This document shows, piece by piece, positions 7,911 through 39,672 of a stretch of 64,000 nucleotides of DNA (positions within the stretch are counted from its first letter, which is position 1; each line of letters starts with the position of its first letter). This DNA is from an uncultured delta proteobacterium. GTDB taxonomy: Bacteria > Desulfobacterota > Binatia > UBA9968. A program made the position numbers and the translations under genes. Where the stretch lies: assembly GCA_963771465.1 (NCBI GenBank), contig CAVYTU010000014.1:928001-992000 (forward strand), in the 5' to 3' direction. Under the pieces are notes generated by a model. It saw only the letters and a program-made list of their open reading frames with translations. It was not told the DNA's origin and made no database searches.

Positions 7911-7935
7911 AACGGTTCGAAATGGCTGGAAATCA

Positions 7936-7974: not shown

Positions 7975-7998
7975 GAGTACTGTTCCGATTCGGTATTT

Positions 7999-18904: not shown

Positions 18905-18988
18905 GGCCTTTCTTGCTTTTTGTTTCGTTCATCCTCCACAGGCACTTTTGAATTCAACTCCAAGACTCCTTGCTCGCGATCGCCGCGT
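18905..18988. repeat. MetE-like 3'-end repeat, short copy
   Basis: ctttcttgctttttgtttcgttcatc..cacttttgaattcaactcc..gcgatcgccgcg. Confidence 0.85.
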
Positions 18989-19020
18989 CCTAAGTCGATC
19001 CAAAAGCAAAACTAAAGATG

Positions 19021-19420
19021 TGAGTAGCCGGGATTTGACGGACACCAAACAAGGGCTTAACAGTTCGGGTGAGGCGTTCGATAGAAAAGCAGAAGCAATT
19101 TAGCGCTGAGTTTAAACGAGTAGCCGTACGACTAGTGGAAAGTTTATCGGTGGGGTGAAAATGGAAGAGGGTGTCACAATTGCCAAGGTGCCGGATTGAA
19201 TGAAACTCAAGCCGAGATGATGCGGCATCTGATCAGGGAGCACGAGAAGCTTGGGCGCACCCTGACCGAAGAAGAGACAGTCACGTTGCTACGCAGCTTG
19301 GGATTCGAAATCAGTGAGCCGAAGTGATGAGGAACAAAGTCGGCTCTGGGGTCAGGTCTGCAATCACACATTCCCGCTTCGCTCCTTCATCCGTTCACCG
19401 TCGGATGCGCCGCGATCTCG
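19021..19420 (+). mobile_element. Composite remnant: IS3 left end and orfA stub, short ORF, REP-like motif (copy A)
   Basis: IR TGAGTAGCCGGGATTTGACGGACACC; KQKQFSAEFKRVAVRLVE; GGGGTCAGGTCTGCAATCACACATT at 19348. Duplicated at 33878-34290. Confidence 0.8.
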
Positions 19421-19472
19421 TGGAGCCGTTAGCCTGAAACCGATAGCGGCTGTCGGTGTCCGGCCTTATTTA

Positions 19473-19952
19473 TCACAACTTAGCCGCCGCCTCTTTCTCC
19501 TCCTCCGTAGCCTCACGCCCGGGCCTCGGTCCGCGACCATTTTGCGCGTCGGTGTACGGAGCGAAGTTCACACGGTGAACATCCTTGATCGAAGAGTCTC
19601 GGCTGGTGATGTGGTAAATCTCCAGGGGCTCTTCCTCTGTGTTATCGAACCAGTAAGGAACTCCTTTGGGTATGGCGACACCTTCGCCGGGCCCAAGCTC
19701 AGCGACCAGGACATCGTTCATACCGTAAAATCTCGCCCTTCCCTTCAGCACAATCCAGATCGACTCTACATCGGGATGCGCGTGGAGATTGTTCTCGCCG
19801 CCGTCCTTGTTGACTCTCATTAGGCCAACGGCGAGGTTTCCAGAACGCAAACGGAACGGGCTGCTCCACTTGCCTCTGCTCGGGTCTGACGCCACGTCTA
19901 TTGGTTGCTGCCGTGCTACGGTAATACCTGCTACCTTGTTCGGCTGTGTCAT
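19473..19952 (-). CDS. Cupin domain protein
   Basis: GGENNLHAHPDVESIWIVLKG..IPKGVPYWF. Confidence 0.85.
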   Translation of the reverse strand: MTQPNKVAGITVARQQPIDVASDPSRGKWSSPFRLRSGNLAVGLMRVNKDGGENNLHAHPDVESIWIVLKGRARFYGMNDVLVAELGPGEGVAIPKGVPYWFDNTEEEPLEIYHITSRDSSIKDVHRVNFAPYTDAQNGRGPRPGREATEEEKEAAAKL

Positions 19953-20004
19953 TTCCGTTTACGCCTCCTTGATACCATGCTATCGGACGCTCGTGACTCC
20001 CGAC

Positions 20005-21126
20005 TTAATGCTTTTCGGCTTTTGGAAAGCCGTAAGCCCCCGCAACCTTCGAGGTGTATTCGTCGAGCTTTGTATAGTGGTTCCAATCGACCAGGGAGAG
20101 TGTCTTTCCTTTGGTCTCTTGCGCTTGAACCGAATTGGGCAACAGTACGGACGCGCCATAAGGCCAGTGTTCATCCAGTAACTTTTGTCCTTCGGGCGAT
20201 GCCTGAAACTCCAGCCATAAAAGGGCGGCATAAGGATTTCTGGCCGCGGCCAGGACGCCGTCGGTAAGATGCAGCCTGCCCACAACCGGCTCCAAAAACT
20301 TATATCCGAGCACCTTGAGGCGGTCTTTTGCCTGCGCTCTCTTCACCGCTCCGAAGTTGGTCCCGATAAACATGGGAATCTCTCCGGCCTGAACGGAAGC
20401 AATCACGATGGAATGGCCTCTTGCCCAGGCAGGCTCCTGTGCTGCGATCTTCTTGGCAAAGTCGAGAGTCTTCTCAAGGCCCCATGCAGGGACCAGCGCC
20501 GCAACCCCTACGGGCCGAATATCCGAGGCGAACTTCTTCCCTTTGAACTCGGGCCGCAAAAGATCCTCCCACTTCACGGGGACCTTTTCGGGAGGGATCA
20601 ACTTGTTGTTGTAGGCCAGCACATGGAGATTGCTGCTAAGCGCCACGACGTGGCGGTAAATGGGATCGACCATCGGCGGAGGGATACTCAGCACCTTGTG
20701 CTGGGCCATGCCCAGAATGTCGAACTTCTTCTGGTGCGGCAGGTACTCATCGTATAACTCGGTCCAGAGGCGATTGGCATCCCAGTCCTTTACGATGCCG
20801 GCCTTGATCTCCAGGAGAAAGCGTTGCGCCGCTTCAACCGATCCTCCTTGCTCCTCCACATGGACGTCGAGAAAGGGGTACTTCGCCTTGAAGGCGCGAG
20901 CCATCGCGTCAAGCATCTTCCCGGACAGGAAGCTTATAGCTCGCATCCTGCCCTCTTTTTTGGCTGCGGCCACGATCTGGTCGTGGCTCGTCGCGAAAAC
21001 ATATCCCTTGGTTTCGGCCTCCTGTTTGGCTTTAAGCAACTCCGGACTCGCAGCGTCGCCATATCCAGCAAAAGCCGTGAGCCACAGCCCCAGGGCCAAA
21101 GCGAAATTTCTCGAAATCGCTTTCAT
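20005..21126 (-). CDS. ABC extracellular solute-binding protein (KGY..AKKEG paralog family)
   Basis: Signal peptide after GGAGG RBS; motifs shared with the 7999 and 31611 paralogs. Confidence 0.88.
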   Translation of the reverse strand: MKAISRNFALALGLWLTAFAGYGDAASPELLKAKQEAETKGYVFATSHDQIVAAAKKEGRMRAISFLSGKMLDAMARAFKAKYPFLDVHVEEQGGSVEAAQRFLLEIKAGIVKDWDANRLWTELYDEYLPHQKKFDILGMAQHKVLSIPPPMVDPIYRHVVALSSNLHVLAYNNKLIPPEKVPVKWEDLLRPEFKGKKFASDIRPVGVAALVPAWGLEKTLDFAKKIAAQEPAWARGHSIVIASVQAGEIPMFIGTNFGAVKRAQAKDRLKVLGYKFLEPVVGRLHLTDGVLAAARNPYAALLWLEFQASPEGQKLLDEHWPYGASVLLPNSVQAQETKGKTLSLVDWNHYTKLDEYTSKVAGAYGFPKAEKH

Positions 21127-21423
21127 ACGCCCGTTACCTCCCAAAAAGTGTTCAAACCTGCGGTATGCAAAATCTTTAACACAATAATTCCGGCAAGGAC
21201 AAACGAGTTCAGTTCTAAGCAACGGCAAACCAAGGGTTCAGGCGTCAGGCTTGCCTAAGTCTACTAACTTTCTAGCAGTGCCGGTATTCTCGCTAGGCAA
21301 AAATCTTCTGGCGCGTGACGATGCCGCGCGCCGATGCGGCCGACTCCTTCGGTCACGCGACTACTAACACCAGGAGGGATGAATGAATAGGCGTTCTTGC
21401 AAAGAAATCACCGGGAAGCCGGT

Positions 21424-22329
21424 CTAGCGGTGAACCGCTTGTTCGAAGCAAACACCCGCTTCCGACGCAACGTCGAAAAGCTCCCGCGCGTGCATCCAGG
21501 CCTGTGTCTTTTCGAACATCTCTCGTGTGTAAGGCTGCGGCACGACCCGTTCGCCGATCCCGAATCGCCGAACATCGACTTGGTCGCGAAACCGCTCGGG
21601 AATCTCGTTGATGAAGTGGCGCTTGTAGCGCTCCGGTTCGACGTCGATATCCGCTTGCGCTCTGATGAGGGCGCGCATGTAGCGTTCGACGTCTAGCGAA
21701 TCCACATCGCGATGAAACATGAAGGCCATCATGAACGTCGTCGAGACGATTCTCCGAAAGCTGTGCTGTTCCAAAAGATAGAGTTGCGGTCCCCAGACGT
21801 TTACCGCCGGTGTCTTCCGCGCTAAAGCTGCATCGACGCGCGACCAGGAAGTGCCGACAAATTTGAGCGCGATGTCTGCGCGCGTCAGAAACACCTCCAT
21901 CGCCTGCAGCGCGGAGTAGTGACTGCCCGAGTGGTATCCGACCGCGATGTCCGTCCGAGCGAGGTCAGCGGGCTCGAAAACACTCGAATCACCCGGCACG
22001 ACGATGGCCGCCTCACAGACGCTATAAGCCTTGCCCCACATAATCCCTTCTTCCACTTTCGCCGACTGGTTTACCGTCCAATGACAGGCACAACTTACGT
22101 CGCCCGCGCCTTCTCCTTTACGTCCGTGCCCCTCCGCGTACCGTTCGAACGCACCAAAGCGGTTATCCTCGAGCGCGGCCGGCGAATCGCCGGTCGCGAG
22201 CCGGGGCGTGTTCTTGCGGCTTCCTTCCACATTGAGTTCGTAGTCGAGACCTTCCGCAGCAAAATAACCTTTTTCTTCGGCAACCCAATCGTTGAGCCTG
22301 CCGTGCGGCTGAATGATGAATTTCGCCAT
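21424..22329 (-). CDS. NMT1/TauA-like substrate-binding protein, no signal peptide
   Basis: WVAEEKGYFAAEGLDY, DVSCACHW, VGYHSGSHYS. Confidence 0.75.
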   Translation of the reverse strand: MAKFIIQPHGRLNDWVAEEKGYFAAEGLDYELNVEGSRKNTPRLATGDSPAALEDNRFGAFERYAEGHGRKGEGAGDVSCACHWTVNQSAKVEEGIMWGKAYSVCEAAIVVPGDSSVFEPADLARTDIAVGYHSGSHYSALQAMEVFLTRADIALKFVGTSWSRVDAALARKTPAVNVWGPQLYLLEQHSFRRIVSTTFMMAFMFHRDVDSLDVERYMRALIRAQADIDVEPERYKRHFINEIPERFRDQVDVRRFGIGERVVPQPYTREMFEKTQAWMHARELFDVASEAGVCFEQAVHR

Positions 22330-22773
22330 ATCTTTCTCCCCGTCAGTTTATGACAGCCCGCATTTTGAATTTTCTAGTCGGCGCTTTGGATCACCTTGTA
22401 AAGCTGTTTGCGGGCTGTCTGTCAGACTGGCCTAAGTTTACTAACTTCCTGGCAGTGTTTGTATAGCGCTGCGCAAAATCCCCTCGCGCGCGCCGGTGCC
22501 GCCGCCGGCAATTTCAGCGAAGTTGGAAAATTTCGTTCCAGTGCTTCTCGTACTTGGGATAATTTTTTGTATCATCCGCTGAAAGCTTATAGGTTTTCGC
22601 CGGGAGAATTTTCTCGACCTTCTTTTGTGATGCCTGTTCGATAAAGTCCAGGGCCCGATCTTGGCGGACTGGTCCGTATGCTATCTCAGCCCCATGGTCA
22701 CAGCAAAAGGCCTTGTAATCGCGGCGTTGTTCGGCCTATTTTTTGGTTGTCGGTCTAAAACTTCTCTGGAGGT

Positions 22774-23616
22774 GTGAATATGCCACGCTATCTCGTTTTG
22801 GCCAATCAAACCGCCGCGAGCCCGGAGCTGACCAGCGCAGTTCGGGAGATCGTGGCAAACGACGCAGATACGGAATTTGTCTTGCTGGTTCCCGCCACAC
22901 CGGTAGAAGATCTCCTCGATTGGCAGGACGGCGATAGTGAAACGATCGCGCAGCGCACCGCTCAAGCGGCAAAAGGTCATCTAGCGGGAGTGGGTGCGAA
23001 AGTCGCGCGCACGGAAGTGGGTGACGCTTCGCCTGTAAAAGCAATCGAGAACGAGTTGGAACAGCACCAAGAAAAATATGACGGCATCATCATCTCCACT
23101 CTACCGCTGCAAAGGTCACGCTGGGTGGCTCTCGACCAGCCCCGGCGCATCGAGCGCCGCTTCAAAGTGCCGGTCCGACACGTGGTAGGCCATTCGGTTA
23201 CTATGACCAGGGAGGATCTCATAAACGGTCTGAATGAAGATCTCAACCTTGAGCTCGAGGCGCTCCTGAGGAGCGTGTATCACGCCGCCGCCGGTCGCGG
23301 CATGCTCGGCCACGAGCTTCGCGAGTTACTGAAAAAGGAGCTCCCGGGCGAGCTTGACCACGCTACGTTTCTCGCCGATAAGATCGTGGCGCTCGGCGGC
23401 GAAGTGCGTATCCGGCCGGCCATGCCCGCAGAATTTGGCGCTGCCCGGGAGCTTTTGCAGCAGAATATTGCCGCCGAACGGAAGATCATAAACAATTACA
23501 CGAGACGGATCGATCAGGCGGCGGAGTTTGGCGACAAAGGTCTGGCGATACGCTTGGAGAATATGCTGGCATCGGAAACTGATCACCTCGAGCAACTCGA
23601 ACGTCTGGGACGCTAG
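22774..23616 (+). CDS. USP-like domain fused to a ferritin/bacterioferritin-like domain
   Basis: N-part RYLVLANQT..FVLLVPATP..IIISTLP..SRW; C-part LNEDLNLE..ELDHA..LGG..ERKI..ETDH. Confidence 0.75.
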   Translation: MNMPRYLVLANQTAASPELTSAVREIVANDADTEFVLLVPATPVEDLLDWQDGDSETIAQRTAQAAKGHLAGVGAKVARTEVGDASPVKAIENELEQHQEKYDGIIISTLPLQRSRWVALDQPRRIERRFKVPVRHVVGHSVTMTREDLINGLNEDLNLELEALLRSVYHAAAGRGMLGHELRELLKKELPGELDHATFLADKIVALGGEVRIRPAMPAEFGAARELLQQNIAAERKIINNYTRRIDQAAEFGDKGLAIRLENMLASETDHLEQLERLGR

Positions 23617-23767
23617 TGCGCCGGACCGCTCACGTCGAACTTTGAGGACTGAACGCAGCGGAGGGCGCGGTCCGCGTGGCAGGCGTGCGGGCTGCTTGTC
23701 AGACGGGCCTAAGGTTACTAACTTCCTGGGAGTGTGTTCCGCGGAGAAAACAAGCCCGTTTTTCGGC

Positions 23768-24796
23768 TTAGTCTCGCAGCACCGCATTCATCCGCGCGAT
23801 GACCTCCGGCGGCTGGGTAACCACCTCGCGCGCCAGGGCTTGAAGCTTCTCGCCGCTCACAGGGTCCGGTTCCCAGCGACGCTTTTCCGCCTCGGCCAAA
23901 AGCTCGGGATCTTTCATCACCTTCAAAAAACTGTCGCGCAGAATTTTGACCCGATCAGCGGGGATCGTCGGACCGCCTACGATCGGCCGGCCGAACGGAC
24001 CGGGCGAGAGCAGAACGGTCGCGAGCCGTTTACCGGCCTCGGGTGTTTTATGTTTTTCCATCGCTTCCCAGATCGTTGGCACGTCCGCTGCCCGCGGATC
24101 GCGCTTTGACCCGCCGATGACAAGTATTCGGACGAATCCGTTTTTCGCCCAGGTGCGGCCCGGTTCCCTGCCGAAAAATGCGCTGGTCGTGCCGGCGCGG
24201 CATTGGACTTCGCCTTTCTCGATGGCGAGGTCGATGTCGTTCGCTCCGGGGTAACCTGCCACCAGGTTGAACTTCAGCGCGAGAACTTCTTCCAGGAGCC
24301 GCGGAAAATAGTGGCCGGGCGTGCCGGTGCCGGTGGTGCCGCACTTGGGCGGCGTCGATGCCTGGCGAATATCATCGAAAGTTTTGAAAGGCGTGTCGGA
24401 ACGCATGGAAAGCATTTCGCTGGTTTCCTCGGGCGTGCCGATCCAGGCGAACTTTGCCCAGTCGAACTTGGCTTCTTTTTGACCGCCGAGTTGGTTGAAA
24501 AACAGCGCGGGGGCGATCAAGCCCAGGGTGAGCCCATCGCCTTTTTCGACTCCATAGATGTAATTAGCCGCGACCATGGTGGCGGCGCCGGGCATATTTT
24601 GCACGATGAAATTCGGATTGCCTGGAATGTACTTGCCCCAAAACCGCGCGATCGCCCGCGCCCAAAGATCGTTGGTGCCGCCGGCGGAGTAGCCGATCAA
24701 CAGTCTGACCGTTTTACCCTTGTAAAAATCAGCTTGAGCGCCGGCGCTCGTGCTGCCGATGGACAAAAGCAATAGAGCGAAAAGAAATGTTCTCAT
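23768..24796 (-). CDS. Bug/TctC tripartite tricarboxylate transporter substrate-binding protein
   Basis: FYKGKTV..GYSAGGTND..IPGNP..VQNMPGA..DGLT. Confidence 0.9.
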   Translation of the reverse strand: MRTFLFALLLLSIGSTSAGAQADFYKGKTVRLLIGYSAGGTNDLWARAIARFWGKYIPGNPNFIVQNMPGAATMVAANYIYGVEKGDGLTLGLIAPALFFNQLGGQKEAKFDWAKFAWIGTPEETSEMLSMRSDTPFKTFDDIRQASTPPKCGTTGTGTPGHYFPRLLEEVLALKFNLVAGYPGANDIDLAIEKGEVQCRAGTTSAFFGREPGRTWAKNGFVRILVIGGSKRDPRAADVPTIWEAMEKHKTPEAGKRLATVLLSPGPFGRPIVGGPTIPADRVKILRDSFLKVMKDPELLAEAEKRRWEPDPVSGEKLQALAREVVTQPPEVIARMNAVLRD

Positions 24797-24912
24797 TGTC
24801 TGAGTTCCTTTCGTTACGTGGATTGCGGCCATTGACCCAAACCCAGGTCCCCTGCCCAAGGGCACGTATAATTCATGCCGGCAGGAAGTCAACACCGCCA
24901 ACGAAAAATTGA

Positions 24913-25150
24913 GAGTCAGACTTTTACTTCTAGACTTTCTTGCTTTTTGTTTCGTTCATCCCGCACAGACACTTTTGAATTCAACTCCACAACTTCTTGC
25001 TGCGATCGCCGCGCCGTCGCGCAGCTTGGCCCAGGCGATTTACGGATGAACGCGGCAGCGGTCGGTGCCGGCGATGACGTTTTCTCGGTCGACGATTTCA
25101 GCAAACGTAATGATACGATCGGCTACCAGTTCCAGGATGCTCGACGAGTT
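24913..25150 (-). pseudogene. Longest copy of the cobalamin-independent methionine synthase II-like (MetE-like) 3' end, plus REP-like motif
   Basis: Minus strand reads LVEHP/ELVADRIITFAEIVDRENVIAGTD..RVHP.IAWAKL..DGAAIA..KKLWS*. Confidence 0.8.
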
Positions 25151-25289
25151 TCGCGGTGAGTTTGCCTAGATCACGGTAAGTCAACGACCGGCAGAGCATC
25201 GTCGTTGACTTGGCCACCCCTTCAAAGCTATTGGAGGCGGTGACGCTTTTCGCAATATCTGTTCTTGAAACTTCAAGGAGGTAGCAGAA

Positions 25290-26594
25290 ATGAACTCATG
25301 GCGAGTTTTACCCGCGGTGTATTTACTGTGTCTTGCATCTAGCGTTGCCGTCGCCTTTGGGCAGAGCAACCCAACCTATATTCAATTTTCCCCCGCTGAA
25401 GTGAAGGGAGCGCTCTACAAACCCGACTCCGGGCCGGCGCCGCATGTTGGGATACTCGTGACGCATCGTACCTCGAATGTCATGGGAAGCTTGACCTGCA
25501 CCGAGCTAGCAAAGAGAGGATTCGCGGTTCTCTGCTTGAACCCAAGATCCGATAACAACGAAGCTCTGGTCAGATGGGAGAGCATCGCTCTAGACGTGCG
25601 GTCGGGAGTGAATTTCCTGAGAAAACAACCGGGCATCACGAAAGTTTTGCTTCTGGGAGGGAGCGGTGGAGGGCCGACAATGAGCTTCTATCAGGCGGTG
25701 GCGGAGCGCGGTCCTTCGTACTGCCAGGGTCCCAACAAACTTGTTCAATGTAGCGGCGAGCTTGCCAATCTCCCGCGGGCCGACGGGATCATCTTCAGAG
25801 ATGCGCATCCAGGAAATCCGGTGAACGGCATCAGGAGTCTGAACCCCGCAATCGTGAACGAGGGGCAACCTGGTCAAAAAAATCCTGAGTTGGATCCGTT
25901 CAACCCCGAGAACGGCTACAACCCCAAGGGACCATCGAAATATTCCGAGGCATTCAAGAAAAAATACTTCAAGGCGCAAGCAGACCGGATGAACAAACTG
26001 ATCGACGACGCTTTGCGCAAGGTGGCGCTGATGAAAGAAGGCAAATACCATTATCCCGATGACGATGTCTTTGTTGTCGTCGGAGGGGGCGGAGCGCGAC
26101 TCATGGAGCTCGACTTGAGTATTCATCACGGCACGATACAGCCGCAGAAATTGCTGAAGAACGACGGCGGCATCGTAACCGAGGTCGTGCACAGCGTTCG
26201 GCGCGCCAATCCAGCGCTCGCGAAAGAAAGCGCGACTTTCGAGAATGGGGCGCGGTTATTGACGGTACGATCTTTTCTCAGCGCCAATGCGACAAGAGCC
26301 GCGGATTCCATGGACGGAATCGATGATTGCTCCACCAACAACTCGACGCCATGCGCCCTGCGCAATATTTCTGTTCCGGTGCTCATTGCCGCCATGGGGG
26401 CGCACTATTTTATACGGGACAACGAGATCCATTACGAAGTAGCCGCCAGCTCGGACAAAGATTTCATCGTGATAGAAGGCGCAACGCACGGAATCACGCC
26501 GTGCGTCCGGTGCGAACAATCGCCGGGGCAATATTCGAACAGCGTGAAGAACTTTTTTGATTACGTGGCGAAATGGATTAACGCCCGGTTTTGA
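25290..26594 (+). CDS. Secreted alpha/beta-hydrolase-fold protein
   Basis: Signal peptide; LGGSGGG elbow, VPVLIAAMG, IEGATHG; GGAGG RBS. Confidence 0.8.
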   Translation: MNSWRVLPAVYLLCLASSVAVAFGQSNPTYIQFSPAEVKGALYKPDSGPAPHVGILVTHRTSNVMGSLTCTELAKRGFAVLCLNPRSDNNEALVRWESIALDVRSGVNFLRKQPGITKVLLLGGSGGGPTMSFYQAVAERGPSYCQGPNKLVQCSGELANLPRADGIIFRDAHPGNPVNGIRSLNPAIVNEGQPGQKNPELDPFNPENGYNPKGPSKYSEAFKKKYFKAQADRMNKLIDDALRKVALMKEGKYHYPDDDVFVVVGGGGARLMELDLSIHHGTIQPQKLLKNDGGIVTEVVHSVRRANPALAKESATFENGARLLTVRSFLSANATRAADSMDGIDDCSTNNSTPCALRNISVPVLIAAMGAHYFIRDNEIHYEVAASSDKDFIVIEGATHGITPCVRCEQSPGQYSNSVKNFFDYVAKWINARF

Positions 26595-26679
26595 TAGCAT
26601 GGGAAGAACAGCGTCGTGGCGAGGTTTGCATGTACGCCAACGGCATCAATTTGCGAAAGGATGAGTGCGAGGTTCTAGG

Positions 26680-26856
26680 TTTCGGGGTCACACGAGTTTC
26701 GCACAGTTTCGGGGTCACGCACAGTTTCGGGGTCAGGTCTTTACTTTTGACATTCGTGGTTACTTAAAATCTGCAATAGAAAATCTCGCGGAGCCCACGC
26801 ATCTACACCCTCGGTGCCGGCGTTACGATTTCGGTCAAGAGTAAAAATACGACCCT
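26680..26856. repeat. Three TTTCGGGGTCA reiterations plus an inverted REP-like pair (REPIN-like)
   Basis: GGGGTCA at 26684, 26711 and 26729 (last: GGGGTCAGGTCTTTACTTTTGACATT); inverted partner ggtcaagagtaaaaatacgaccct at 26833-26856. Confidence 0.85.
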
Positions 26857-26879
26857 TAACGTGTCCATCATGACGATTA

Positions 26880-27566: not shown

Positions 27567-27586
27567 GAATCTATTGAGGAAACCAA

Positions 27587-27762
27587 GGGTCATACTTTTT
27601 GCTTCTAGACTTTTCTCGCTTTTTTGTTTCGTTCATACCTCACAGACACTTTTCAATTCAACGCCGCAACTCCTTGCTCGCGATCGCCGCGCCGTCGCGC
27701 AAAGCGCGCAGCTTGACCTATGCGATTTGCGGATGGACGCGGTCGCTTAGGCCGCAGTCGGT
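27587..27762. repeat. REP-like motif plus MetE-like 3'-end repeat
   Basis: gggtcatacttttt..ctagac..tcaacgccgcaactccttgctcgcgatcgccgcgccgtcgcgc..gcagtcggt. Confidence 0.85.
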
Positions 27763-28010
27763 TGGATCAAATCTTTACCATATAAACTGGTCCTACTCGC
27801 AACTGATTGACTGCACAAATTTACTCGAGGCTGCTCCAAGATAAGGATAAGAGACCGACGAAAATCCGAAACATCAAATTACCAGACTTGACCCTGATGG
27901 TTTCACTGCCGTATACGAGAGCGAGGAAGGTGGCAAAAGTAACAAACATTCTGACGTGCGTATTAATTGAATCTTTAAAAGGCCGAGAAAATGACTGAGG
28001 AGTTTATTTT

Positions 28011-29135: not shown

Positions 29136-29261
29136 CGCGGGTTTCTGGCTGCTGACACCGGTGTATGGACTTCAAAGTACGTTACGAGCACACGGGTGCC
29201 AGAGCAATGAAAAGAAATAGGGCTTACCCGAGATAGTTGCGCAATGAAAGGAGACCAGCCT

Positions 29262-30323: not shown

Positions 30324-30330
30324 AAAAATC

Positions 30331-30410
30331 GGGTCGGACTTTTACTTCTAGACTTCTTGCTTTTTGTTTCGTTCGGCCCGCACAAGCACTTTTCAATTTA
30401 ACGCTCGCCA
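30331..30410. repeat. REP-like motif plus shortest copy of the MetE-like downstream repeat
   Basis: gggtcggacttttacttctagacttcttgctttttgtttcgttc..cacttttcaatt. Confidence 0.8.
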
Positions 30411-30434
30411 ACAACAACTGGTGTGGAGGTATTT

Positions 30435-31586: not shown

Positions 31587-31610
31587 TCGTAGTATTGGCG
31601 AGCTTAGGTC

Positions 31611-32726: not shown

Positions 32727-32774
32727 TCGCGCAGTTTTACCAGGAGCGGCAGGTCGAGAGGAGCTTACATTCAC

Positions 32775-33728
32775 ATGTCTGAAGAAAAACCGACTACGCG
32801 GCTCAGAAAGCTGCTCAGCAGGAAAGATCGAGTGCTCGTCATGCTTCACCCTCCCACTGCCGCGCATGCGCGGATCATGGCAGCCGGCGGCGTCGAAGCA
32901 TTGTTCGTCGGGACCGGCGCCGTGGTCGGGCCATACACTGGTCTAGCGGATGTGGGAGTGGCGAGCATGACCGAATGTGTAACCATCGCCGGGTGGATCG
33001 CGCGTAGTGTTGCGATCCCCGTCATGCTCGATGGCGATACGGGTCATGGTGGAATCATGGCCGTGCGGCGCCTGGTGGCCGAGTGCATCAGGGCCGGGAT
33101 TGCCGGACTGCGTCTTGACGACCAACCGGGTGAAACCAAGCGGGGAACACAAACTGCCGGAATCGAAGTAGCACCGCTTGAAGTTGTCCTAGCCCGTTAT
33201 CGGGCGGCAGTGGACATGAGGGACGAACTTGATCCTGATTTTGTGATCATGGCGCAGAGCTACGCGCGCGATGCGGCGAATGGCGGATTCGAAGAATTTT
33301 TGCGGCGCAGCAAAGCTTACAAAGAAGTGGCCAAAGTGGATTGGGTTCAATTCGAATCGCCCCACTCGATCGAGGAGATTCGCCAGGCGCGCGCGGCCGT
33401 GGCGGGAACTTTTTCGGCCCAGAAAGGAAAGCTCCCGCGCATTCTATCTCTCAAAGAGCATCTCGAATTGGGGCTCAATGTAGCCTGGTATTCCGGTCTT
33501 GCAACCGCGGTCACGTATGTGGCGCTGTGGGATTTTCTGCAAGATTTTCAAAAACGCGAGCTCGCAGCCTGGGAAGATTTCTGCGTGGCACACAAAGATA
33601 ATCCGTATCTGCGTGGTGGTGGCCGAGCGCCAATTCCGGAAGGGCGCGAAAAACAACGCGAGCTAGAGGAACGCTATTACCCGAACGAGATGCTTCAGAA
33701 ATACCGCGGCCCTTCCGAGAAAGGCTAA
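32775..33728 (+). CDS. Isocitrate lyase/PEP mutase family protein
   Basis: GLADVG, MLDGDTGHGG, LDDQ..KRG. The canonical K-K/R-C-G-H cysteine is absent. Confidence 0.85.
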   Translation: MSEEKPTTRLRKLLSRKDRVLVMLHPPTAAHARIMAAGGVEALFVGTGAVVGPYTGLADVGVASMTECVTIAGWIARSVAIPVMLDGDTGHGGIMAVRRLVAECIRAGIAGLRLDDQPGETKRGTQTAGIEVAPLEVVLARYRAAVDMRDELDPDFVIMAQSYARDAANGGFEEFLRRSKAYKEVAKVDWVQFESPHSIEEIRQARAAVAGTFSAQKGKLPRILSLKEHLELGLNVAWYSGLATAVTYVALWDFLQDFQKRELAAWEDFCVAHKDNPYLRGGGRAPIPEGREKQRELEERYYPNEMLQKYRGPSEKG

Positions 33729-33877
33729 TCTGCTGCAAGGTTTGAACGGACACTGGACCCGATCCGGTGGATTGAACCGCTTGAACAGTTCAGTATTGTT
33801 GTCTGTCTACTCTCGACTAGGCAAGCGGAAGCAGACGATGTTCCAGGGCTAAGAGCGTGTTCGCGTTTGGCAGTTCG

Positions 33878-34290
33878 CCCGGGATTTGACGGACACCAAA
33901 CAAGGGCTTAAAAAGTTCGGGAGATGCGTTCGACAAGAAAGCAGAAGCAATTTAGCGCTGAGTTTAAACGAGTAGCCGTGCGACTTGCGGAAAGTTTCTC
34001 GGAGGGGTGAAAATGGAAGAGGGTGTCACGATTGCCAAGGTGCCGGATTGGATGAAGCTCAAGCCCGAGATGATGCCGCATCTGATCAGGGAGCACGAGA
34101 AACTTGGGCGCACCCTGACCGAGGAAGAGACAGTCACGTTGCTCCGCAGCTTGGGATTCGAAATCAGTGAGCCGAAGTGATGAGGAACAACAAGTCGGCT
34201 CTGGGGTCAGGTCTGCAATCACACATTCCCGCTTCGCTCCTCCATCCGTTCGAGGCGTCGTCTCACCGTCGGATGCGCCGCGATCTCCGC
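33878..34290 (+). mobile_element. Composite IS3-end/REP remnant (copy B)
   Basis: Aligns with 19029-19420; GGGGTCA at 34203. Confidence 0.8.
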
Positions 34291-34955
34291 TATGAGTCAA
34301 AGTCCAGTCCGCTGAACTTCCCGTCCGCGTATTCGCACGACCAGTAGACGTCTACATCCGGTCCATCGAAGTCAACCAGGACAGGTTGCCGTGATCGCAG
34401 CTTGATCGAAGCGAGGCGCAGTGCGCTGACGTCGGCGCCCAATTCGGGATCCTCGGACGCCCACTCCTTCGCCGTCAGCGCGAGATAGTCGTTTAACCGG
34501 CGCTCGAAGGTATCGAAATCCGCCACTAGCTCGCGAGCACGGGCGACGAGTGCCGGATTGGGCTCCTGCTTTCCGTCGATGAGGATTTCCACCGTCCGGT
34601 CCCGCACCCTGAAGTCGCCCTCCCAAGCCTCCGCCTCGACGTTGCGAATCAGCGTGCCGAGCTGCGGATCCCTCCGCACGTGACCGCGCGCTCTGCTCAT
34701 GATCAGGTGAGCGCGGGGGGACACTTTCGTCCAGATGACCGAGATCACAAACGCACTCATGACACCGACAAACATCAGGCCGACGCCGATGACGAGCCAC
34801 CTCAGGATCCAGTATGAAATGCGCGTGCCGGCGTAAATCAGGAGCAGCCCAATGGCCGCGCCGATGAGCGCGTCGCGGACTGTGGGTTGAACCTCGTCGT
34901 GATCGTCCGTCGGAGGCGGATCGGCAGCCAAGCGGCTTGAATCTTCGATAGACAT
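34290..34955 (-). CDS. Membrane-anchored hypothetical protein
   Basis: Two predicted TM helices followed by a soluble domain; GGGTCA-N12-TGAC lies 15 bp upstream (34971). Confidence 0.7.
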   Translation of the reverse strand: MSIEDSSRLAADPPPTDDHDEVQPTVRDALIGAAIGLLLIYAGTRISYWILRWLVIGVGLMFVGVMSAFVISVIWTKVSPRAHLIMSRARGHVRRDPQLGTLIRNVEAEAWEGDFRVRDRTVEILIDGKQEPNPALVARARELVADFDTFERRLNDYLALTAKEWASEDPELGADVSALRLASIKLRSRQPVLVDFDGPDVDVYWSCEYADGKFSGLDFDS

Positions 34956-35032
34956 GTAGAGAGACTGCGAGGGTCAGGCATGAGTAATTGACTTATTTTC
35001 TTCGAAGCAGAGCTAGGAAAAACAGTTGCGCG

Positions 35033-35260
35033 CTACTGCCGATTCTTGGGTTGGGAAGAAGCGGAACTCTCGGCTTCCATCTTGGCGAGCACGCGGTTCA
35101 GGGCGGCGATCTGAGGGATGATCTTTTTGTCTTTGGTGCCTTGAAACCGAAGCGCCAACTCATCCACGCGCCATTCGATCTGGGCGCGGGTAAACTTCTT
35201 CGGCAGTATGAACTGGATCGGCATCGGCGCTGTATATCGCAGCATCGAGCCGAAGGTCAA
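35033..35260 (-). CDS. Small hypothetical protein
   Basis: Open frame with plausible helical content (IEWRVDELA..IAALNRVL). Confidence 0.4.
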   Translation of the reverse strand: MTFGSMLRYTAPMPIQFILPKKFTRAQIEWRVDELALRFQGTKDKKIIPQIAALNRVLAKMEAESSASSQPKNRQ

Positions 35261-35279
35261 GCACGATCGACGCGGCCGC

Positions 35280-35375
35280 CTAGGCCAAGCAGTGCGCGGC
35301 GCGGGGATCGCGAGTAAGAAGTTGTGGAGTCGAATCCAGAAGTGTCTGTCCGGAATGAACGAAAATAAACAAGCC
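35280..35375. repeat. MetE-like 3'-end repeat in opposite orientation
   Basis: gatcgcgagtaagaagttgtggagtcgaatccagaagtgtctg..atgaacgaaa is the reverse complement of the 24913 family. Confidence 0.75.
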
Positions 35376-35484
35376 GCTTTGGGTGGCTGCGAACGCCGAC
35401 GTTCACCCGGCGACGCAACGGCGCTGGATCACCGACGAGCCTATGGGTGCGCCGCGTCCGGCGCAATTGCAAGTCGGCAGCGAT

Positions 35485-35985
35485 TCAGGGCAATCGGGTC
35501 TTTGCTTCGGCAAAGAATGCCGACAACGTAGGCGCGATTTCGACCATCCCATCTGCAAGAATGAGATCTGCGTTTATCCCGATGTCATGATAGATCTGGA
35601 TGAGCGGCGGATCGTCGCTCGCCCTTGTGTTGAGGAAGTACTGGTCACCCGATCCGTGTGCGCAACCGCCAACGCAGAGGTAGCCGTGCCGCAGCACCGC
35701 AGTTCCCGGATACAGCTCGAGTGATTCCGTATGGATCGAGTCAGGCCCCAGCCATAAGAGCCAACTGATTTCGTCGCCTTCGGACGACTCCGGCACGACG
35801 ATGCCGAGTTCGAGGCCAATCAGAGGTACCGTGGCAAGAAGGTCACGGTACCAATCTGGCAGATGGGCGCCAAGGTCACGGCCAAGTCGATCAAGGTCGT
35901 CTGCAGCCGCGAGTCTGCCGGCCTGGCCGTCCCGTTCGGCGCGCTCTACAAGTTCCCGTGCTGCAGCGAGGACTTTCAGATTCAT
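35485..35985 (-). CDS. SMI1/KNR4 family protein (putative toxin immunity)
   Basis: LG..LPDWYRDLL; YLCVG..GSGDQYFL; IAPTLSAFF. Confidence 0.75.
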   Translation of the reverse strand: MNLKVLAAARELVERAERDGQAGRLAAADDLDRLGRDLGAHLPDWYRDLLATVPLIGLELGIVVPESSEGDEISWLLWLGPDSIHTESLELYPGTAVLRHGYLCVGGCAHGSGDQYFLNTRASDDPPLIQIYHDIGINADLILADGMVEIAPTLSAFFAEAKTRLP

Positions 35986-36226
35986 CGAGTTCGAGCCTTC
36001 AACGTGCTGTTGTCCACGAAGCTACGTCGCGGGCACCAGGGTCAAATATACAATCAATACAATTTGCACTGCTTGCATGTAGTTTGGCCAGTAGCAGTAG
36101 TTCCAATAGCGAAAGCATCGGCACTTCGCTTCACGCTCTCTAATCCTCGACGTACTTTGTGACTCCTCACCGTCCTGCCGTGAAGAGATTGCCGGCGCTA
36201 TCGATGGCAACGTCGCAGAAGCGTGA

Positions 36227-36301
36227 GGGTCAAACTTTTGATGTTCGGAGAAGGATCGATTGAGGCGAAGCCGTAGATGTCAAAACTTAAGTTTCAACCC
36301 C
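36227..36301. repeat. Inverted REP-like pair
   Basis: gggtcaaacttttgatg ... gatgtcaaaacttaagtttcaacccc. Confidence 0.7.
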
Positions 36302-36331
36302 GTGCTCCGCCGTTCTCCGCCCGTGCGAGGA

Positions 36332-37357
36332 TTACGCGGCGACTGTTTCGCGCGGCGCGACCTTTGCGCGCCGCGATATCATCGCTGCGGCATTGTCGTG
36401 CAAGATCTTTGCGCGCGCGTCCTCGCCGATCTGCGCTTCCGCGAGCGCCTTGCTGGTCCACTCGCAGCCGAATTCGGTTCCGTCGGTGCCGCACACGATG
36501 CGCTCGGCGCCGTACAACCGTACCGCGGCCTCGATCGCACCCGGGCCGAACGAGTTGCAATCCACGTACACCTTGGCGCGGCGGAAGCGCGACGAAGGCA
36601 GTTCCTCTTTCGCTGAATCCAGCAGGCTGCGGTGATCCATGCGCTCGATCTCGTACGGAATATTGCCGCCGAGATTGTGAACCAGGACCATCGCATCGGG
36701 GTACGGCGCGAGGTAGTCGGTGAGACACAGCGTCACCATCACCGAGGACAGGCTCGCCTGCATGTCGAGCGTGCCGTTGCGGCGGCGCGCGTTGTCGGTG
36801 TCGCCGGCAACCTTGGGAAACGCGTCGCCAGGCCGCGGACCGTGGTGAATGAAGACGATCGCACGGTGCCGGTTCGCCACCTCCAACAGCGGGCGCATGT
36901 TCTCGGCGTCCTTCTTCGTGAGAAACCCGTTTCCCGGCACTTGCGCGCCGATCACGCCCGGCAGCGCCAGCGCGCGCTCAAACTCGGCGGCGGCAGCAGA
37001 CATATCCACCAGCGGCAGCGCGGCAAACACACTGAAGCGCCCCTCGTATTGCTGGCACATCCGTGACAGTGCATCGTTGACCATCCTGCACAGCGGCAGC
37101 GAAACCTCGACCGGCTGCGACTCAATCCAGCAGAACGCACCGAGCAGCGACAACACACTGGTGCTCACGCCCTGACGATCCATCCTGGCGAGATGGAATT
37201 CCACGTCATCAAACGCCGCGGACAGCGGCTCCTCGCCGATCCGGCTCTTCAGCATTTCTACGCCGTCCTGATTGCGCACGATGCGCGGTTCCTTGGTGCG
37301 GGCGCGCAGGGCGTCGATCAGCTCGGCGGGCCGCCAATGGGCATGCATGTCGATCAT
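36332..37357 (-). CDS. Amidohydrolase family protein (ACMSD-like)
   Basis: MIDMHAH, MDRQGV, FIHH, HNLGG, GTDG. Confidence 0.88.
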   Translation of the reverse strand: MIDMHAHWRPAELIDALRARTKEPRIVRNQDGVEMLKSRIGEEPLSAAFDDVEFHLARMDRQGVSTSVLSLLGAFCWIESQPVEVSLPLCRMVNDALSRMCQQYEGRFSVFAALPLVDMSAAAAEFERALALPGVIGAQVPGNGFLTKKDAENMRPLLEVANRHRAIVFIHHGPRPGDAFPKVAGDTDNARRRNGTLDMQASLSSVMVTLCLTDYLAPYPDAMVLVHNLGGNIPYEIERMDHRSLLDSAKEELPSSRFRRAKVYVDCNSFGPGAIEAAVRLYGAERIVCGTDGTEFGCEWTSKALAEAQIGEDARAKILHDNAAAMISRRAKVAPRETVAA

Positions 37358-37636
37358 GTCTGTCTCCTTGGTTTATCGTCCAACAGATTAACCCCGAAAG
37401 TCCCAGTGTGCGCGAGATTGTTTGCCAACTATCCCGCAATTTATTTCAACCGCCACAGCGAAGCAAGCGCTTTGCCGCACCCCTGCTGCTACTTCAACGG
37501 CCCTTTCGTTAACACCTACGCCGAAATTCACCAGGCGTTGGAAAATTTCCGCGCTGGTCGGTTCTGGATTCCGGTTTCTATGAGTGCGTGAGAAGGACGG
37601 TTGCCACCAGCGGAACAACCGCCCCTTCCGTGTCAT

Positions 37637-39322
37637 CTATGTAGTCATCACGTCGATGATCGCCGGCTTGCCGCTTTGGTTGGCTTCGAGGCCGCGCTTG
37701 AGCGCATCCTGAAGCTTTTCCGGATCCGTCACCGTCTCGCCGTAACCGCCCACGGATTCAGCGACCTTCACGAAGTCGGGCGCATTGATGTGGGTGCCGT
37801 GGTAGAGATCGATTTCCGCCGCGATCCCGTCCGGGTACATCTTCTGGTGCATGCCCTGCATCGCGGCGTATTTTTTGTTGTTGAAGATGACCGCCATGAT
37901 CGGCAGCGTGTAATCGCGCGCCGCGCCGAGGCTGCCGAGCGACGGATTGTAGAGGAACGCGCCGTCGCCGATCAGCGTTACCACCTGCCGTTCCGGCTTC
38001 GCCAGCTTGATCCCGAGCGAAAGACCCAACCCCTGTCCGAGCCCGCCTTGGCGGGTGAACAGGCACTGCGGGTCGTTCCATACGAGGTGTTGGCGCAGCG
38101 TGGCGGTGTGCGTAGTAACTTCGTCGATATAGATCGTATCTTTGGGCATCACGGCGTTCAGCGACGCGCACAGCCATACCGGATCGATCGGTGACGTCTT
38201 GCGCGCCGCCGCCTGCGCCGCATTTCTTTTCTCGACGAGCGCATCGTGCGCCGCGGCGAGTTCCTTGCGTCTCGTTTCCACGGCAGCCTTATCGATTGTC
38301 GCGGTATCCGCCAGATCGCGCAGCGTCTGCGCCGCATTGCCTTCCAGGTACATGTCGGCCTGATGGCTTTGATAGACCATGGCCGAGTTGTGCGGCGCCT
38401 CGTCCACCATGGCGATCACGGCCTTGGGCGGACGGTTGCTCGGCGGATACCAGGGGACGCGCGTGCGGACGACGATCGCAAGGTCCATGTCGTTCCAGAA
38501 CGGTTTGATGTCGGTTCCCTGATAAAGCGGATGATCCTTGGGGAAGTTGGCGAACAGAGCGCCGGGCTTCTCAACCACCGGCAGAGCGAACTTCTCGCAC
38601 AGCGCCATCAGAGCCTCGTAGGTCGCGACCTCCTGGCCGGCGCCCTCGGTGAGCACGACCGGGTGCTTCGCCTTGGAGATCTGCGCGGCGAGCTTTTCAA
38701 TGTCTTCCGGCGCAGTCAGCATGCGCGGTGCGGGCGGAACCGTGCGTGGATTGGCCGGGGGTGTCCAGCCATCCATCAGCGTTTCCGTCGAAACGGACAG
38801 ATAAGTGGGTCCGGTCGGTTGCCGCTGCGCCAGCTCGCCGGCGCGGATGACGCTTTCATAAAGCGTGTAGGCGCTGCCAGCGACGGAGGCGTACTTGACG
38901 ATCGAATCGACCAGGTGGGTCGTGCCGCCGACGATGCTGAGGTTGTTAATCCACTGGGCGCCCGGATCGAACTCCGGTTGCTCGCCGTAGGTCATCGACT
39001 CGCCGGAGATCACCACCATCGGCACGCCGGAAACAAAGGCGCCGTGAATACCCATGGCACCTTGCAGCAGCCCGGAACCCGCATGCAGCAATACGCCCTG
39101 CATCCGACCAGTGGCTAGTGTGTAGCCCGCGGCCATGTCGACGGCCAGCGTTTCGTGCCACACATCCAGGAGCTTGGGACCGCTCTTGCGCCGGTGGATC
39201 TGGTCGGCCATGGCTTCCCAGACGGGCGCCCATTCGGTGCCCGGCGAGGACAAGATGTACTCAACTCCAAGCTTGTGAAACGCTTCGACTATAGCGTTGC
39301 CGCCGTCGAACTGTTTTTTCAT
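37637..39322 (-). CDS. Thiamine pyrophosphate-binding enzyme (acetolactate synthase/benzoylformate decarboxylase-like)
   Basis: SPGTE, WHE; TPP motif GDGAFLYN..IFNN. Confidence 0.9.
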   Translation of the reverse strand: MKKQFDGGNAIVEAFHKLGVEYILSSPGTEWAPVWEAMADQIHRRKSGPKLLDVWHETLAVDMAAGYTLATGRMQGVLLHAGSGLLQGAMGIHGAFVSGVPMVVISGESMTYGEQPEFDPGAQWINNLSIVGGTTHLVDSIVKYASVAGSAYTLYESVIRAGELAQRQPTGPTYLSVSTETLMDGWTPPANPRTVPPAPRMLTAPEDIEKLAAQISKAKHPVVLTEGAGQEVATYEALMALCEKFALPVVEKPGALFANFPKDHPLYQGTDIKPFWNDMDLAIVVRTRVPWYPPSNRPPKAVIAMVDEAPHNSAMVYQSHQADMYLEGNAAQTLRDLADTATIDKAAVETRRKELAAAHDALVEKRNAAQAAARKTSPIDPVWLCASLNAVMPKDTIYIDEVTTHTATLRQHLVWNDPQCLFTRQGGLGQGLGLSLGIKLAKPERQVVTLIGDGAFLYNPSLGSLGAARDYTLPIMAVIFNNKKYAAMQGMHQKMYPDGIAAEIDLYHGTHINAPDFVKVAESVGGYGETVTDPEKLQDALKRGLEANQSGKPAIIDVMTT

Positions 39323-39492
39323 GTTGCTCCCCCCAACGGTTATATTGTCGTGTGTATTATCTCACGCCTGAACGCGCAAGCCCCCAAGGCGGGCTATCGA
39401 TATCTCTGGAATACCGCGATCGCGCCATCCTGCAGCGGCGAATCTTTACCTTTCAGATTGCTACAAGTGCTGGATCCAGGAGAAAAATAGCA

Positions 39493-39672
39493 GTCAGACT
39501 TTTACTCTTGGACTTTTTTGTTATTTATTTCGCTCAGCCGGCACGGGCACTTTTTAATTCAACTCCACAACTTCTTCCGCGCGATCGCCGCGCCGTCGCG
39601 CAGCGCGCGCAGCTTGGCCCGCGAGATTTGCGGATGGACACGCCGCCTAGGCCGCTGTCGGTGCCGGCGATA
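39493..39672. repeat. REP-like motif plus MetE-like 3'-end repeat
   Basis: gtcagacttttactcttggac..tcaactccacaacttctt..gtcggtgccggcgat; minus strand reads IAGTDSGLGG..HPQI..AKLRALRDGAAIARKKLWS*. Confidence 0.85.

What the first reader, a model, noticed from the sequence alone, without database searches (positions are those of the whole stretch)
18905..39672. Six nested copies of a MetE-like 3' end, fixed at the REP side and variable at the other
Seen: one segment recurs at 18905-18988, 24913-25150, 27587-27762, 30331-30410, 39493-39672 and, inverted, at 35280-35375. Four copies begin at the GTCAGACTTTTACTTCTAGAC-type motif and extend about 80-240 bp toward or into a sequence encoding ..ENVIAGTD..HPQIAWAKL..DGAAIA..KLWS*. 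That is the C-terminus typical of cobalamin-independent methionine synthase II-family proteins. No full gene is in the window. Inference: one fixed end with a ragged other end fits single-strand or rolling-circle capture of flanking DNA from a nick site, or repeated insertion at a site downstream of that gene.
Basis: partly seen in the sequence, partly recalled or inferred. Interest (0 to 1): 0.8.

Follow-up and report, generated by a model that had tools for sequence, protein, structure and literature searches.

The report
Scattered relics of one gene's tail
Six decayed copies of the last part of one enzyme gene, each ending at the same short repeat element, lie scattered through this stretch; they are old, non-working relics at places where the genome was rearranged, and are a moderately interesting curiosity.

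Summary
Six segments (18900-18987, 24906-25148, 27576-27762, 30331-30402 and 39493-39671 on the minus strand; 35297-35369 on the plus strand) are 5'-truncated copies of the last 0-61 codons of a 401-aa MetE-like (PF01717) gene plus about 80 nt of downstream spacer. The three longer copies carry stops or frameshifts. No other part of the gene is in the window.

The spacer ends in a REP-like unit. That unit also occurs alone, as a palindromic doublet at 7931-7977. In a related genome the same family flanks a RAYT-like transposase gene as inverted copies.

The family is lineage-wide. A scan of genome contigs found it in 13 loci of Binatia-type soil MAGs. Three of them hold the intact gene with the same spacer. 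The others hold truncated tails, with start points at codons 312-391.

Copies are old and diverged independently. Related copies differ in 5' extent, so at least part of the raggedness is later erosion.

Best reading (confidence about 0.45): these are non-functional relics whose constant end is a REP-dependent junction. The enzymology is unresolved. No transposase, integrase or reverse transcriptase lies in the window. Interest is moderate.

The parts
18900..18987 (-). Tail copy 1: codons ~391-401 of the MetE-like gene, the stop codon and most of the spacer. The terminal REP unit is lost or diverged.
   Evidence: 89.8% to parent L006 over 88 nt
24906..25148 (-). Tail copy 2, the longest in the window: codons ~341-401, spacer and REP unit. 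It has an in-frame TAA, a short internal deletion and a 1-nt frameshift near the end.
   Evidence: The same 5' junction occurs in L002a and in protein P0001.
27576..27762 (-). Tail copy 3: codons 368-401, spacer, REP unit and tail. It has an in-frame stop.
27763..27781 (-). REP-like half-unit that directly abuts the 5' junction of copy 3. It has 1 mismatch to the core AGAYYTGACCC and resembles the REP next to the RAYT-like gene of L013.
30331..30402 (-). Tail copy 4: spacer and REP unit only. It starts 2 nt before the position of the stop codon.
35297..35369 (+). Tail copy 5 (inverted): codons ~390-401 and the first ~40 nt of the spacer. The REP unit is lost.
39493..39671 (-). Tail copy 6: codons ~365-401, spacer and REP unit. 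It has one frameshift. Its 5' junction lies 18 nt from the start of the divergent DUF3500 gene.
7931..7977 (.). Palindromic REP doublet. Its minus-strand half (7931-7962) equals the last ~32 nt of the spacer. It lies between two convergent genes.
   Evidence: DNA fold -16.2 kcal/mol, z -5.3

Best explanation
The six segments are non-functional, vertically inherited relics of the 3' tail of a conserved 401-aa MetE-like gene. Each carries the gene's ~80-nt downstream spacer, whose last ~30 nt is a REP-type unit.

The constant end is that REP unit. I infer that REP-dependent joining repeatedly placed the gene tail next to new DNA, mostly in one orientation. The joining could be nicking or strand transfer by a RAYT-type HUH enzyme, or recombination between REP units at different sites.

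The gene-side end was set by where the second junction fell, in some cases again at a REP unit or at a short match between the REP tail and the gene. It was then shortened further by deletions and rearrangements. The copies have since decayed independently.

Shown: identity, anatomy, age, erosion, the REP nature of the boundary, and lineage-wide distribution.

Inferred: that the REP is the active cause of the fixed boundary, and which enzyme acts.
For: - Anatomy and identity.
- Intact parents: the intact gene with the same spacer occurs in three related loci (L006, L011, L014). L006 and L011 are 95% identical from the start codon to about 60 nt past the stop, with unrelated flanks.
- REP boundary: most copies end within a few nt of the REP unit and its short T-rich tail.
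- REP family: it is over-represented and lies outside ORFs of 150 aa or more (9 hits against 1.1 expected). It forms a strong palindromic doublet at 7931-7977. In L013 it flanks a RAYT-like gene as inverted copies.
- REP at 5' junctions: 3 of 18 junctions have a REP core (2 mismatches or fewer) within 35 nt upstream in the same orientation, against a 1.3% background (binomial p about 0.002).
- Erosion: three related pairs differ in 5' extent.
- Sharp junctions: flanks upstream of all 18 junctions are unrelated to the gene.
- Age and independence: the three longest window copies are closer to the best intact gene (82.5-88.9%) than to the average fragment (78.1-84.7%); the three short ones are about equal. 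Window copies are 64-85% identical to each other, and most substitutions are private.
- Conserved junctions in other genomes: W24913 = L002a = P0001; L001 = P0043/P0028.
- Synteny breaks at the copies: L017 matches the window's TPP-enzyme gene at 90.6% and L002 matches its DUF3500 gene at 89%, but the neighbour on the other side of the tail differs.
Against: - No RAYT or any other transposase is in the window (73 of 73 ORFs). The only RAYT-like gene seen is in another genome and scores below the NCBIfam cut-off (66.9 against 80 bits).
- Single REP units fold no better than shuffles, so 'palindrome' holds only for the doublet.
- Only 3 of 18 5' junctions show a REP core.
- No target-site duplication or common cleavage motif was seen at junctions (inspection).
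- No filled-versus-empty site pair was available.
- Five copies start within 4 nt of each other with unrelated flanks. Random erosion does not predict this. It suggests either a hot spot or a sub-family copied as a unit.
- Why only this gene's tail multiplied is unexplained. Other REP-adjacent genes did not, apart from one weak rhodanese-like tail in L013.
- The REP in the three intact-gene loci is more degenerate than in many fragments.
Confidence: 0.45

Rival explanations
1. One-ended single-strand (HUH/RAYT-type) or rolling-circle copying. A nick at the REP gives a fixed 3' end. Copying or excision of variable length upstream creates tails that are truncated from birth and inserted next to other REP units.
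For: - The boundary is REP-bounded, and a RAYT-like gene flanked by inverted REPs exists in the lineage.
- Some tails sit directly after another REP unit (L001, L008, W27587).
- Five copies share a defined 5' end with unrelated flanks, as a copied unit would.
- Orientation is mostly direct within clusters: 5 of 6 in the window, L002a/L002b/L016 on one contig, and L010a/b.
Against: - No HUH gene is in the window.
- Junctions show no shared cleavage or target motif.
- Related copies differ in 5' extent, so truncation at birth is not needed.
- No IS91/ISCR gene lies next to any copy.
- All copies are old, so no recent event shows the mechanism.
Confidence: 0.2
2. These are att-type duplications. 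Integrative elements or circular DNA carrying a copy of the gene's 3' end integrated at that end, by site-specific or Campbell-type recombination. This left direct repeats of the tail around each cargo segment, and repeated events built an array.
For: - Arrays are in direct orientation with 1-9 kb of unrelated cargo between copies.
- In L010 two direct tail copies flank a toxin-antitoxin-like pair.
- Integration into gene 3' ends with a replacement tail is a well-known pattern (recalled).
Against: - No integrase is in the window (73 of 73 ORFs) or in the 40 of 50 locus ORFs scanned.
- No intact gene sits at either end of the window's array.
- Copies with the same 5' start have unrelated adjoining DNA, which is not the conserved element end expected.
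- The cargo is ordinary lineage genes such as binding proteins and amidohydrolases.
Confidence: 0.13
3. These are independent paralogous MetE-like genes that decayed in place. The 3' end survived because the spacer or REP acts as a terminator or insulator that selection keeps.
For: - The region is rich in broken genes and paralogous binding-protein genes.
- More distant MetE-like paralogues exist in the protein database at 45-53% identity.
- In about half of the copies an upstream gene reads toward the tail (by inspection).
Against: - All tails are close to one gene type (59-98% protein identity to P0016; 78-90% nucleotide identity to the best intact gene), not to distant paralogues.
- In the window, 6 of 6 relics are 3' tails, with no 5' or internal relic.
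- Junctions are sharp.
- The spacer is less structured than shuffles, with no terminator-like fold (z +0.6 to +1.6).
- Neighbours differ at every copy.
Confidence: 0.1
4. These are reverse-transcribed copies of the mRNA 3' end, 5'-truncated like LINE copies.
For: The copies have a fixed 3' end and variable 5' truncation skewed to short lengths. Divergence from a conserved master is star-like.
Against: - No reverse transcriptase is in the window.
- No terminator-like structure sits at the fixed end.
- In L006 a terminator-like hairpin with a T run lies about 150 nt beyond the conserved spacer (inspection).
- Copies cluster locally and in one orientation. Erosion is shown directly.
Confidence: 0.03

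Closest known systems
REP / REPIN elements with RAYT (REP-associated tyrosine transposases)
   Same: - It is a short extragenic repeat family and is over-represented in the window.
- It occurs as an inverted doublet that folds into a hairpin.
- In a related genome, inverted copies flank a Y1 (IS200-like) transposase gene.
Sources. For comparison I read passages of PMC3116915, which also mention tandem REPIN clusters that include flanking sequence. PMC3337134, PMC5581495 and PMC3479197 were seen only as search listings or abstracts.
   Different: - The repeated unit here carries up to 89 codons of a host gene tail plus a 50-nt non-palindromic spacer on one side of a single REP unit.
- Single units are not significantly palindromic.
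- The GTAG or CGTC tags known from other REPs (recalled) were not looked for.
- No RAYT is in the window.
Duplicated gene 3' ends (attL/attR) left by integrative elements that target gene ends (recalled from general knowledge)
   Same: The copies are direct repeats of a gene's 3' end around unrelated cargo, truncated at the 5' side and constant at the gene's end.
   Different: There is no integrase, no intact target gene at the end of the array, and copies with the same start have unrelated neighbours.
IS91 / ISCR one-ended rolling-circle mobilisation (recalled)
   Same: There is one fixed end and one variable end.
   Different: In IS91/ISCR the mobilised DNA stays attached to the IS and its Y2 HUH gene. 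No such gene lies next to any copy.
Mosaic intergenic repeats such as E. coli BIMEs or neisserial NIMEs, and REP-mediated duplication join points (recalled; not read here)
   Same: Intergenic DNA is built of modules that change partners at a short repeat unit. Synteny breaks at these units.
   Different: One module here is recognisably the tail of a protein-coding gene and is shared across genomes of a candidate phylum.

Membership tests
Cobalamin-independent methionine synthase family (Pfam PF01717, Meth_synt_2), as gene fragments | Significant sequence similarity to family members | tested here: met
   The 56-aa read-through hits 44 proteins, 18 of them with PF01717. tblastn of 401-aa relatives gives E 1e-13 to 2e-9 for three copies. 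Intact relatives L006, L011 and L014 score on PF01717 and on NCBIfam methionine-synthase models, all below their cut-offs. The fragments alone give no Pfam or PDB hit.
Cobalamin-independent methionine synthase family (Pfam PF01717, Meth_synt_2), as gene fragments | Complete open reading frame (a working gene) | tested here: not met
   At most 61 of 401 codons are present. The three longer copies have stops or frameshifts.
REP / REPIN-RAYT system | Short repeat, extragenic and over-represented | tested here: met
   The core has 9 hits against 1.1 expected, and all 9 lie outside ORFs of 150 aa or more.
REP / REPIN-RAYT system | Imperfect palindrome or inverted doublet forming a hairpin | tested here: inconclusive
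   The doublet at 7931-7977 folds at -16.2 kcal/mol (z -5.3). Single units fold at -2 to -4.6 kcal/mol (z +0.25 to -1.6).
REP / REPIN-RAYT system | A RAYT gene flanked by inverted REPs of the same family | tested here: inconclusive
   This was seen in L013, another genome. The protein hits Y1_Tnp (Pfam E 3e-12) and NCBIfam REP_Tyr_transpos at 66.9 bits against a cut-off of 80. Inverted repeats lie at 372-400 and 1400-1432. None is in the window, and the rest of this genome was not available.
IS91 / ISCR rolling-circle elements | A Y2 HUH transposase gene adjoining the fixed end | tested here: not met
   No transposase domain was found in 73 of 73 window ORFs.
Integrative element att duplication | A tyrosine or serine recombinase gene and an intact target gene at one end of the array | tested here: not met
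   No recombinase domain was found and no intact gene is in the window. The genome beyond the window could not be seen.
Integron cassette array | IntI and attC sites with a folded structure | tested here: not met
   No integrase was found. The repeats fold no better than shuffles. Genes between copies lie on both strands.
Retrocopies (reverse-transcribed mRNA tails) | A reverse transcriptase source, with the 3' end at the transcript end | tested here: inconclusive
   No RT domain is in the window. No terminator-like fold sits at the fixed end. Transcript ends are not testable here.

The most novel reading that the evidence does not exclude
The tails may be natural by-products of REP/RAYT activity. 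In this reading a RAYT-type enzyme cuts at the REP unit behind the gene, and host DNA upstream of the cut is carried along and pasted beside other REP units, in one orientation.

That would make this family the first natural record that REP/RAYT systems move host gene segments. It would also reveal the polarity of a reaction whose in-vivo mechanism is still unknown: a fixed 3' REP boundary and an open 5' side.
Probability: 0.15. Interest if true: 0.7.

Novelty: new variant of a known kind. Interest (0 to 1): 0.4.

Why it matters
If the REP boundary is causal, these tails are fossils of how REP units and their transposase relatives rearrange bacterial chromosomes. That process has been inferred for decades but never seen directly.

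The tails also give a ready-made test substrate: a defined REP unit with a defined boundary. In addition they mark synteny breakpoints in Binatia, an uncultured soil lineage.

If the tails are only eroded relics, the practical value is for annotation. The short ORFs that databases hold for this family (26 of 44 hits are 102-218 aa without a domain) are then pseudogene read-throughs, not proteins.

Tried and rejected
- RNA element: Rfam found no family in the window. Folding of the six copies gave z +0.6 to +1.6, less structured than shuffles.
- Direct family assignment of the fragments: Pfam on four fragment pieces gave no relevant hit. A PDB sequence search with the 56-aa read-through gave 0 hits.
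- Small ORF in the spacer: a 9-codon frame is present in some copies but lacks its start or is disrupted in others (inspection). Rejected.
- Antisense ORFs over the copies (24875-25159, 27599-27844, 39352-39699): no Pfam hit, and indels between copies break the frames. Rejected.
- Promoter reading of the REP core (it contains a TTGACC-like hexamer): no -10-like hexamer at the right spacing in the copies inspected. Rejected by eye only; the promoter tool was not run.
- Target-site duplications and shared cleavage motifs at junctions: none seen by eye.
- Integron reading: rejected (see the membership test).
Identity to parent L006 is 89.8, 84.7, 86.1, 87.3, 87.7 and 87.2% from left to right.
- Literature: a search for Binatota/Binatia (83 papers, 15 listed, titles and abstracts seen) showed nothing on repeats. 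No search was made for this exact repeat in print beyond.
The single genome-contig scan used an exact degenerate pattern, so diverged copies and the window's own genome were not recovered. Where the window's parent gene lies is unknown.


Full report

A blastn of window 24850-25260 against the window returns five further matches:
- 27586-27742 (82.2% over 157 nt)
- 39482-39671 (77.0% over 191 nt)
- 18900-18987 (89.8% over 88 nt)
- 30333-30402 (88.7% over 71 nt)
- 35364-35277, inverted (86.5% over 89 nt)

It also returns a 20-nt exact match at 7939-7958. The repeat finder gives the same families. A degenerate pattern of the shared non-coding part hits five times, against none in 100 shuffles.

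ANATOMY OF A COPY

Read in the coding direction (minus strand for five copies), each copy has three parts:
- a variable number of final codons of one gene
- the stop codon
- about 80 nt of A-rich spacer that ends with the GTCTGAC-type motif and a short T-rich tail

IDENTITY OF THE GENE

The longest copy, read through its one in-frame stop with X, finds 44 proteins at E<=0.01. Eighteen of them carry PF01717, and proteins of about 401 aa are 71-79% identical to the query.

tblastn with two such proteins places the copies at residues 346-401 (24913 copy), 368-401 (27587) and about 365-401 (39493), with a weak hit (E=0.6) at 391-401 for the inverted copy. It finds no other part of the gene in the 64 kb at E<1.

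A nucleotide alignment to an intact relative puts the starts at codons 391, 341, 368, 401, 390 and 365, from left to right. The 30331 copy therefore holds the spacer only.

The three longer copies each have a stop or a frameshift. The fragments alone hit nothing in Pfam or the PDB.

THE SOURCE ORGANISM AND THE WIDER FAMILY

- Seven are low-GC chance matches with no similarity to the window (L004, L007, L009, L012, L015, L018, L019).
- Thirteen are from soil MAGs labelled Candidatus Binatia, or 'uncultured delta proteobacterium'. Two short contigs are binned as Chloroflexota and Nitrospiraceae.

Flanking genes of the window are 85-91% identical to these loci. Examples are the TPP-enzyme gene to L017, the DUF3500 gene to L002 and the GST gene to L014. 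The window therefore comes from a relative, but its own genome was not among the hits.

Three loci (L006, L011, L014) hold the intact 401-aa gene followed by the same spacer. L006 and L011 are 95% identical from the start codon to about 60 nt past the stop and unrelated outside that span.

The other ten loci hold twelve 5'-truncated tails. Together with the window there are 18 tails. Their starts fall at codons 312, 341, 350, 360, 364, 365, 367, 367, 368, 368, 368, 384, 385, 386, 388, 390, 391 and 401. The L002a start at 385 is an internal deletion edge; its true junction is at about codon 341, as in W24913.

The 90 nt upstream of every junction is unrelated to the gene, so the junctions are sharp.

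The protein database tells the same story. Of the 44 hits:
- 16 are full length.
- 16 start inside the homology and are uninformative.
- 12 join 16 or more unrelated residues to the tail, at parent residues 289-355. Some of these, such as P0014, are probably frameshifted whole genes.

Several of these ORFs read on into the spacer.

THE CONSTANT END IS A REP-TYPE UNIT

The last ~32 nt of the spacer recur without any gene tail at 7931-7962. There they form a palindromic doublet with an inverted partner. The doublet folds at -16.2 kcal/mol with z -5.3.

A related core, AGAYYTGRCC, occurs nine times in the window against 1.1 expected, always outside ORFs of 150 aa or more.

In L013 two inverted copies of this family (372-400 and 1400-1432) flank a Y1 transposase gene. 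That gene resembles REP-associated tyrosine transposases, scoring 66.9 bits against a cut-off of 80.

Single units fold no better than shuffles. 'REP' is therefore supported by distribution, by the doublet and by the RAYT-like neighbour, not by the single unit's structure.

Most tails end within a few nt of this unit's tail. Four sequences end 30-40 nt earlier: copies 18905 and 35280, L017, and the intact-gene locus L014.

HOW THE RAGGED END AROSE

Three pairs of demonstrably related copies differ in 5' extent:
- L001 and L017 share the REP-side neighbours (TctC-type and cupin genes, 94.7%). They start at codon 312 and at about 360, and have different genes on the other side.
- L002b and L016 are 92% identical paralogues 33 kb apart. 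They start at codons 388 and 364.
- The 24913 copy and L002a share the same junction and about 25 nt of flank. L002a lacks about 100 nt internally.

At least part of the raggedness is therefore later deletion or rearrangement.

The starts are not random, however. Five tails (27587, L005, L013, L010a, L010b) begin within 4 nt of each other, at parent nt 1100-1103, with unrelated flanks. This point lies just 5' of a short GC hairpin in the gene and shares five bases with the REP tail (my reading of the sequences).

Three of 18 junctions have a REP core within 35 nt upstream in the same orientation, against a 1.3% background (p about 0.002). The 27587 copy is one of them.

AGE AND RELATIONSHIPS

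Substitutions are mostly private. Window copies are 64-85% identical to each other and 78-89% identical to the best intact gene. There is no trend along the array.

Orthologous junctions in other genomes show that the copies predate the splits between these species.

Copies sit at synteny breaks: either side can be conserved between genomes while the other differs.

They also cluster. There are six in 21 kb here, three in 33 kb on the contig of L002/L016, and two 1 kb apart in L010 around a toxin-antitoxin-like pair. Orientation within clusters is mostly direct.

MECHANISM

No transposase, integrase or reverse transcriptase domain occurs in any of the 73 ORFs of the window.

In the loci, 40 of 50 ORFs of 90 aa or more were scanned. 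An IS110 gene abuts one junction (L003). L013 has the RAYT-like gene and an IS4-type gene. No integrase was seen.

I therefore read the family as non-functional relics whose constant boundary is a REP-dependent junction, made by RAYT-type nicking or by recombination between REP units. The gene-side boundary reflects the second junction plus later erosion. Confidence is about 0.45.

The rivals are:
- att-type duplication by integrating DNA (0.13)
- in-place decay of paralogues with a selected terminator (0.1)
- retrocopies (0.03)

The data do not separate the first two sharply. What is missing is a filled/empty site pair and a genome-wide map.

COMPARISON WITH KNOWN SYSTEMS AND VERDICT

The closest known system is REP/REPIN with RAYT. 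I read passages of PMC3116915; the other papers were seen only as listings or abstracts.

This family differs in two ways. It carries a recognisable host gene tail and a non-palindromic spacer on one side of a single unit, and that composite is shared across an uncultured lineage.

I file it as a new variant of a known kind, of moderate interest. The bolder reading is that it records REP/RAYT systems moving host DNA with a fixed polarity. That reading is not excluded, and I put it at about 0.15.

Noticed in passing
window 7931-7977: A palindromic REP doublet lies between two convergent binding-protein genes. One half equals the end of the MetE-tail spacer. The DNA fold is -16.2 kcal/mol, z -5.3.
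   Followed up: yes
window 4097, 4180, 11189, 13546, 14882, 19350, 26731, 27884, 34205: A REP-like core, AGAYYTGRCC, occurs 9 times against 1.1 expected, always outside ORFs of 150 aa or more. Some sites carry a second TGACCCCGA about 15-20 nt further on.
   Followed up: partly
L013 372-1670: A RAYT-like Y1 transposase gene (with a DnaA-C-like end) is flanked by inverted REPs. A rhodanese-like C-terminal tail with an in-frame stop follows directly (Pfam E=0.0038, weak). This may be a second example of a truncated gene tail next to a REP.
   Followed up: partly
window 3447-4057, 6168-6776, 9358-9474: A NUDIX gene and its downstream ~100 nt are duplicated at 95% identity, 2.7 kb apart. A third piece holds only the last ~39 codons plus about 30 nt. 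This is another gene with a 3'-only relic.
   Followed up: partly
window 19059-19396, 33911-34251, 15389-15448: A 340-nt repeat is 91-98% identical between two copies 14.85 kb apart. A partial third copy begins exactly beside the position of the REP core. No protein family was found for its ORFs.
   Followed up: partly
window 21232-21281, 22409-22458, 23686-23735: This is a 50-nt repeat family containing GTCAGAC, at spacings of 1177 and 1277 nt. Two copies lie just upstream of minus-strand gene starts.
   Followed up: no
window 24913/27587/30331 and 3460/6180/9372: Spacings of about 2.7 kb recur: 2677 and 2740 between MetE tails, and 2720 and 2791 between NUDIX pieces. This may be chance.
   Followed up: no
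window 1717-2919, 9854-10955, 41576-53477: Several genes are broken. A solute-binding-protein gene is frameshifted, a mandelate-racemase-type gene is split in two ORFs, and an NRPS cluster has truncated condensation-domain pieces. Five paralogous binding-protein genes (42-51% identical) are spread through the window.
   Followed up: partly
L010 966-2141: Two direct tail copies with the same 5' start flank a Gp49/HigB-like toxin ORF (Pfam E 2e-11) and a neighbouring small ORF. The arrangement looks like a cassette.
   Followed up: partly
L003 2193-3741: An IS110-family transposase gene lies next to the truncated end of a tail copy. The other part of the gene is not on its far side within the locus.
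   Followed up: partly
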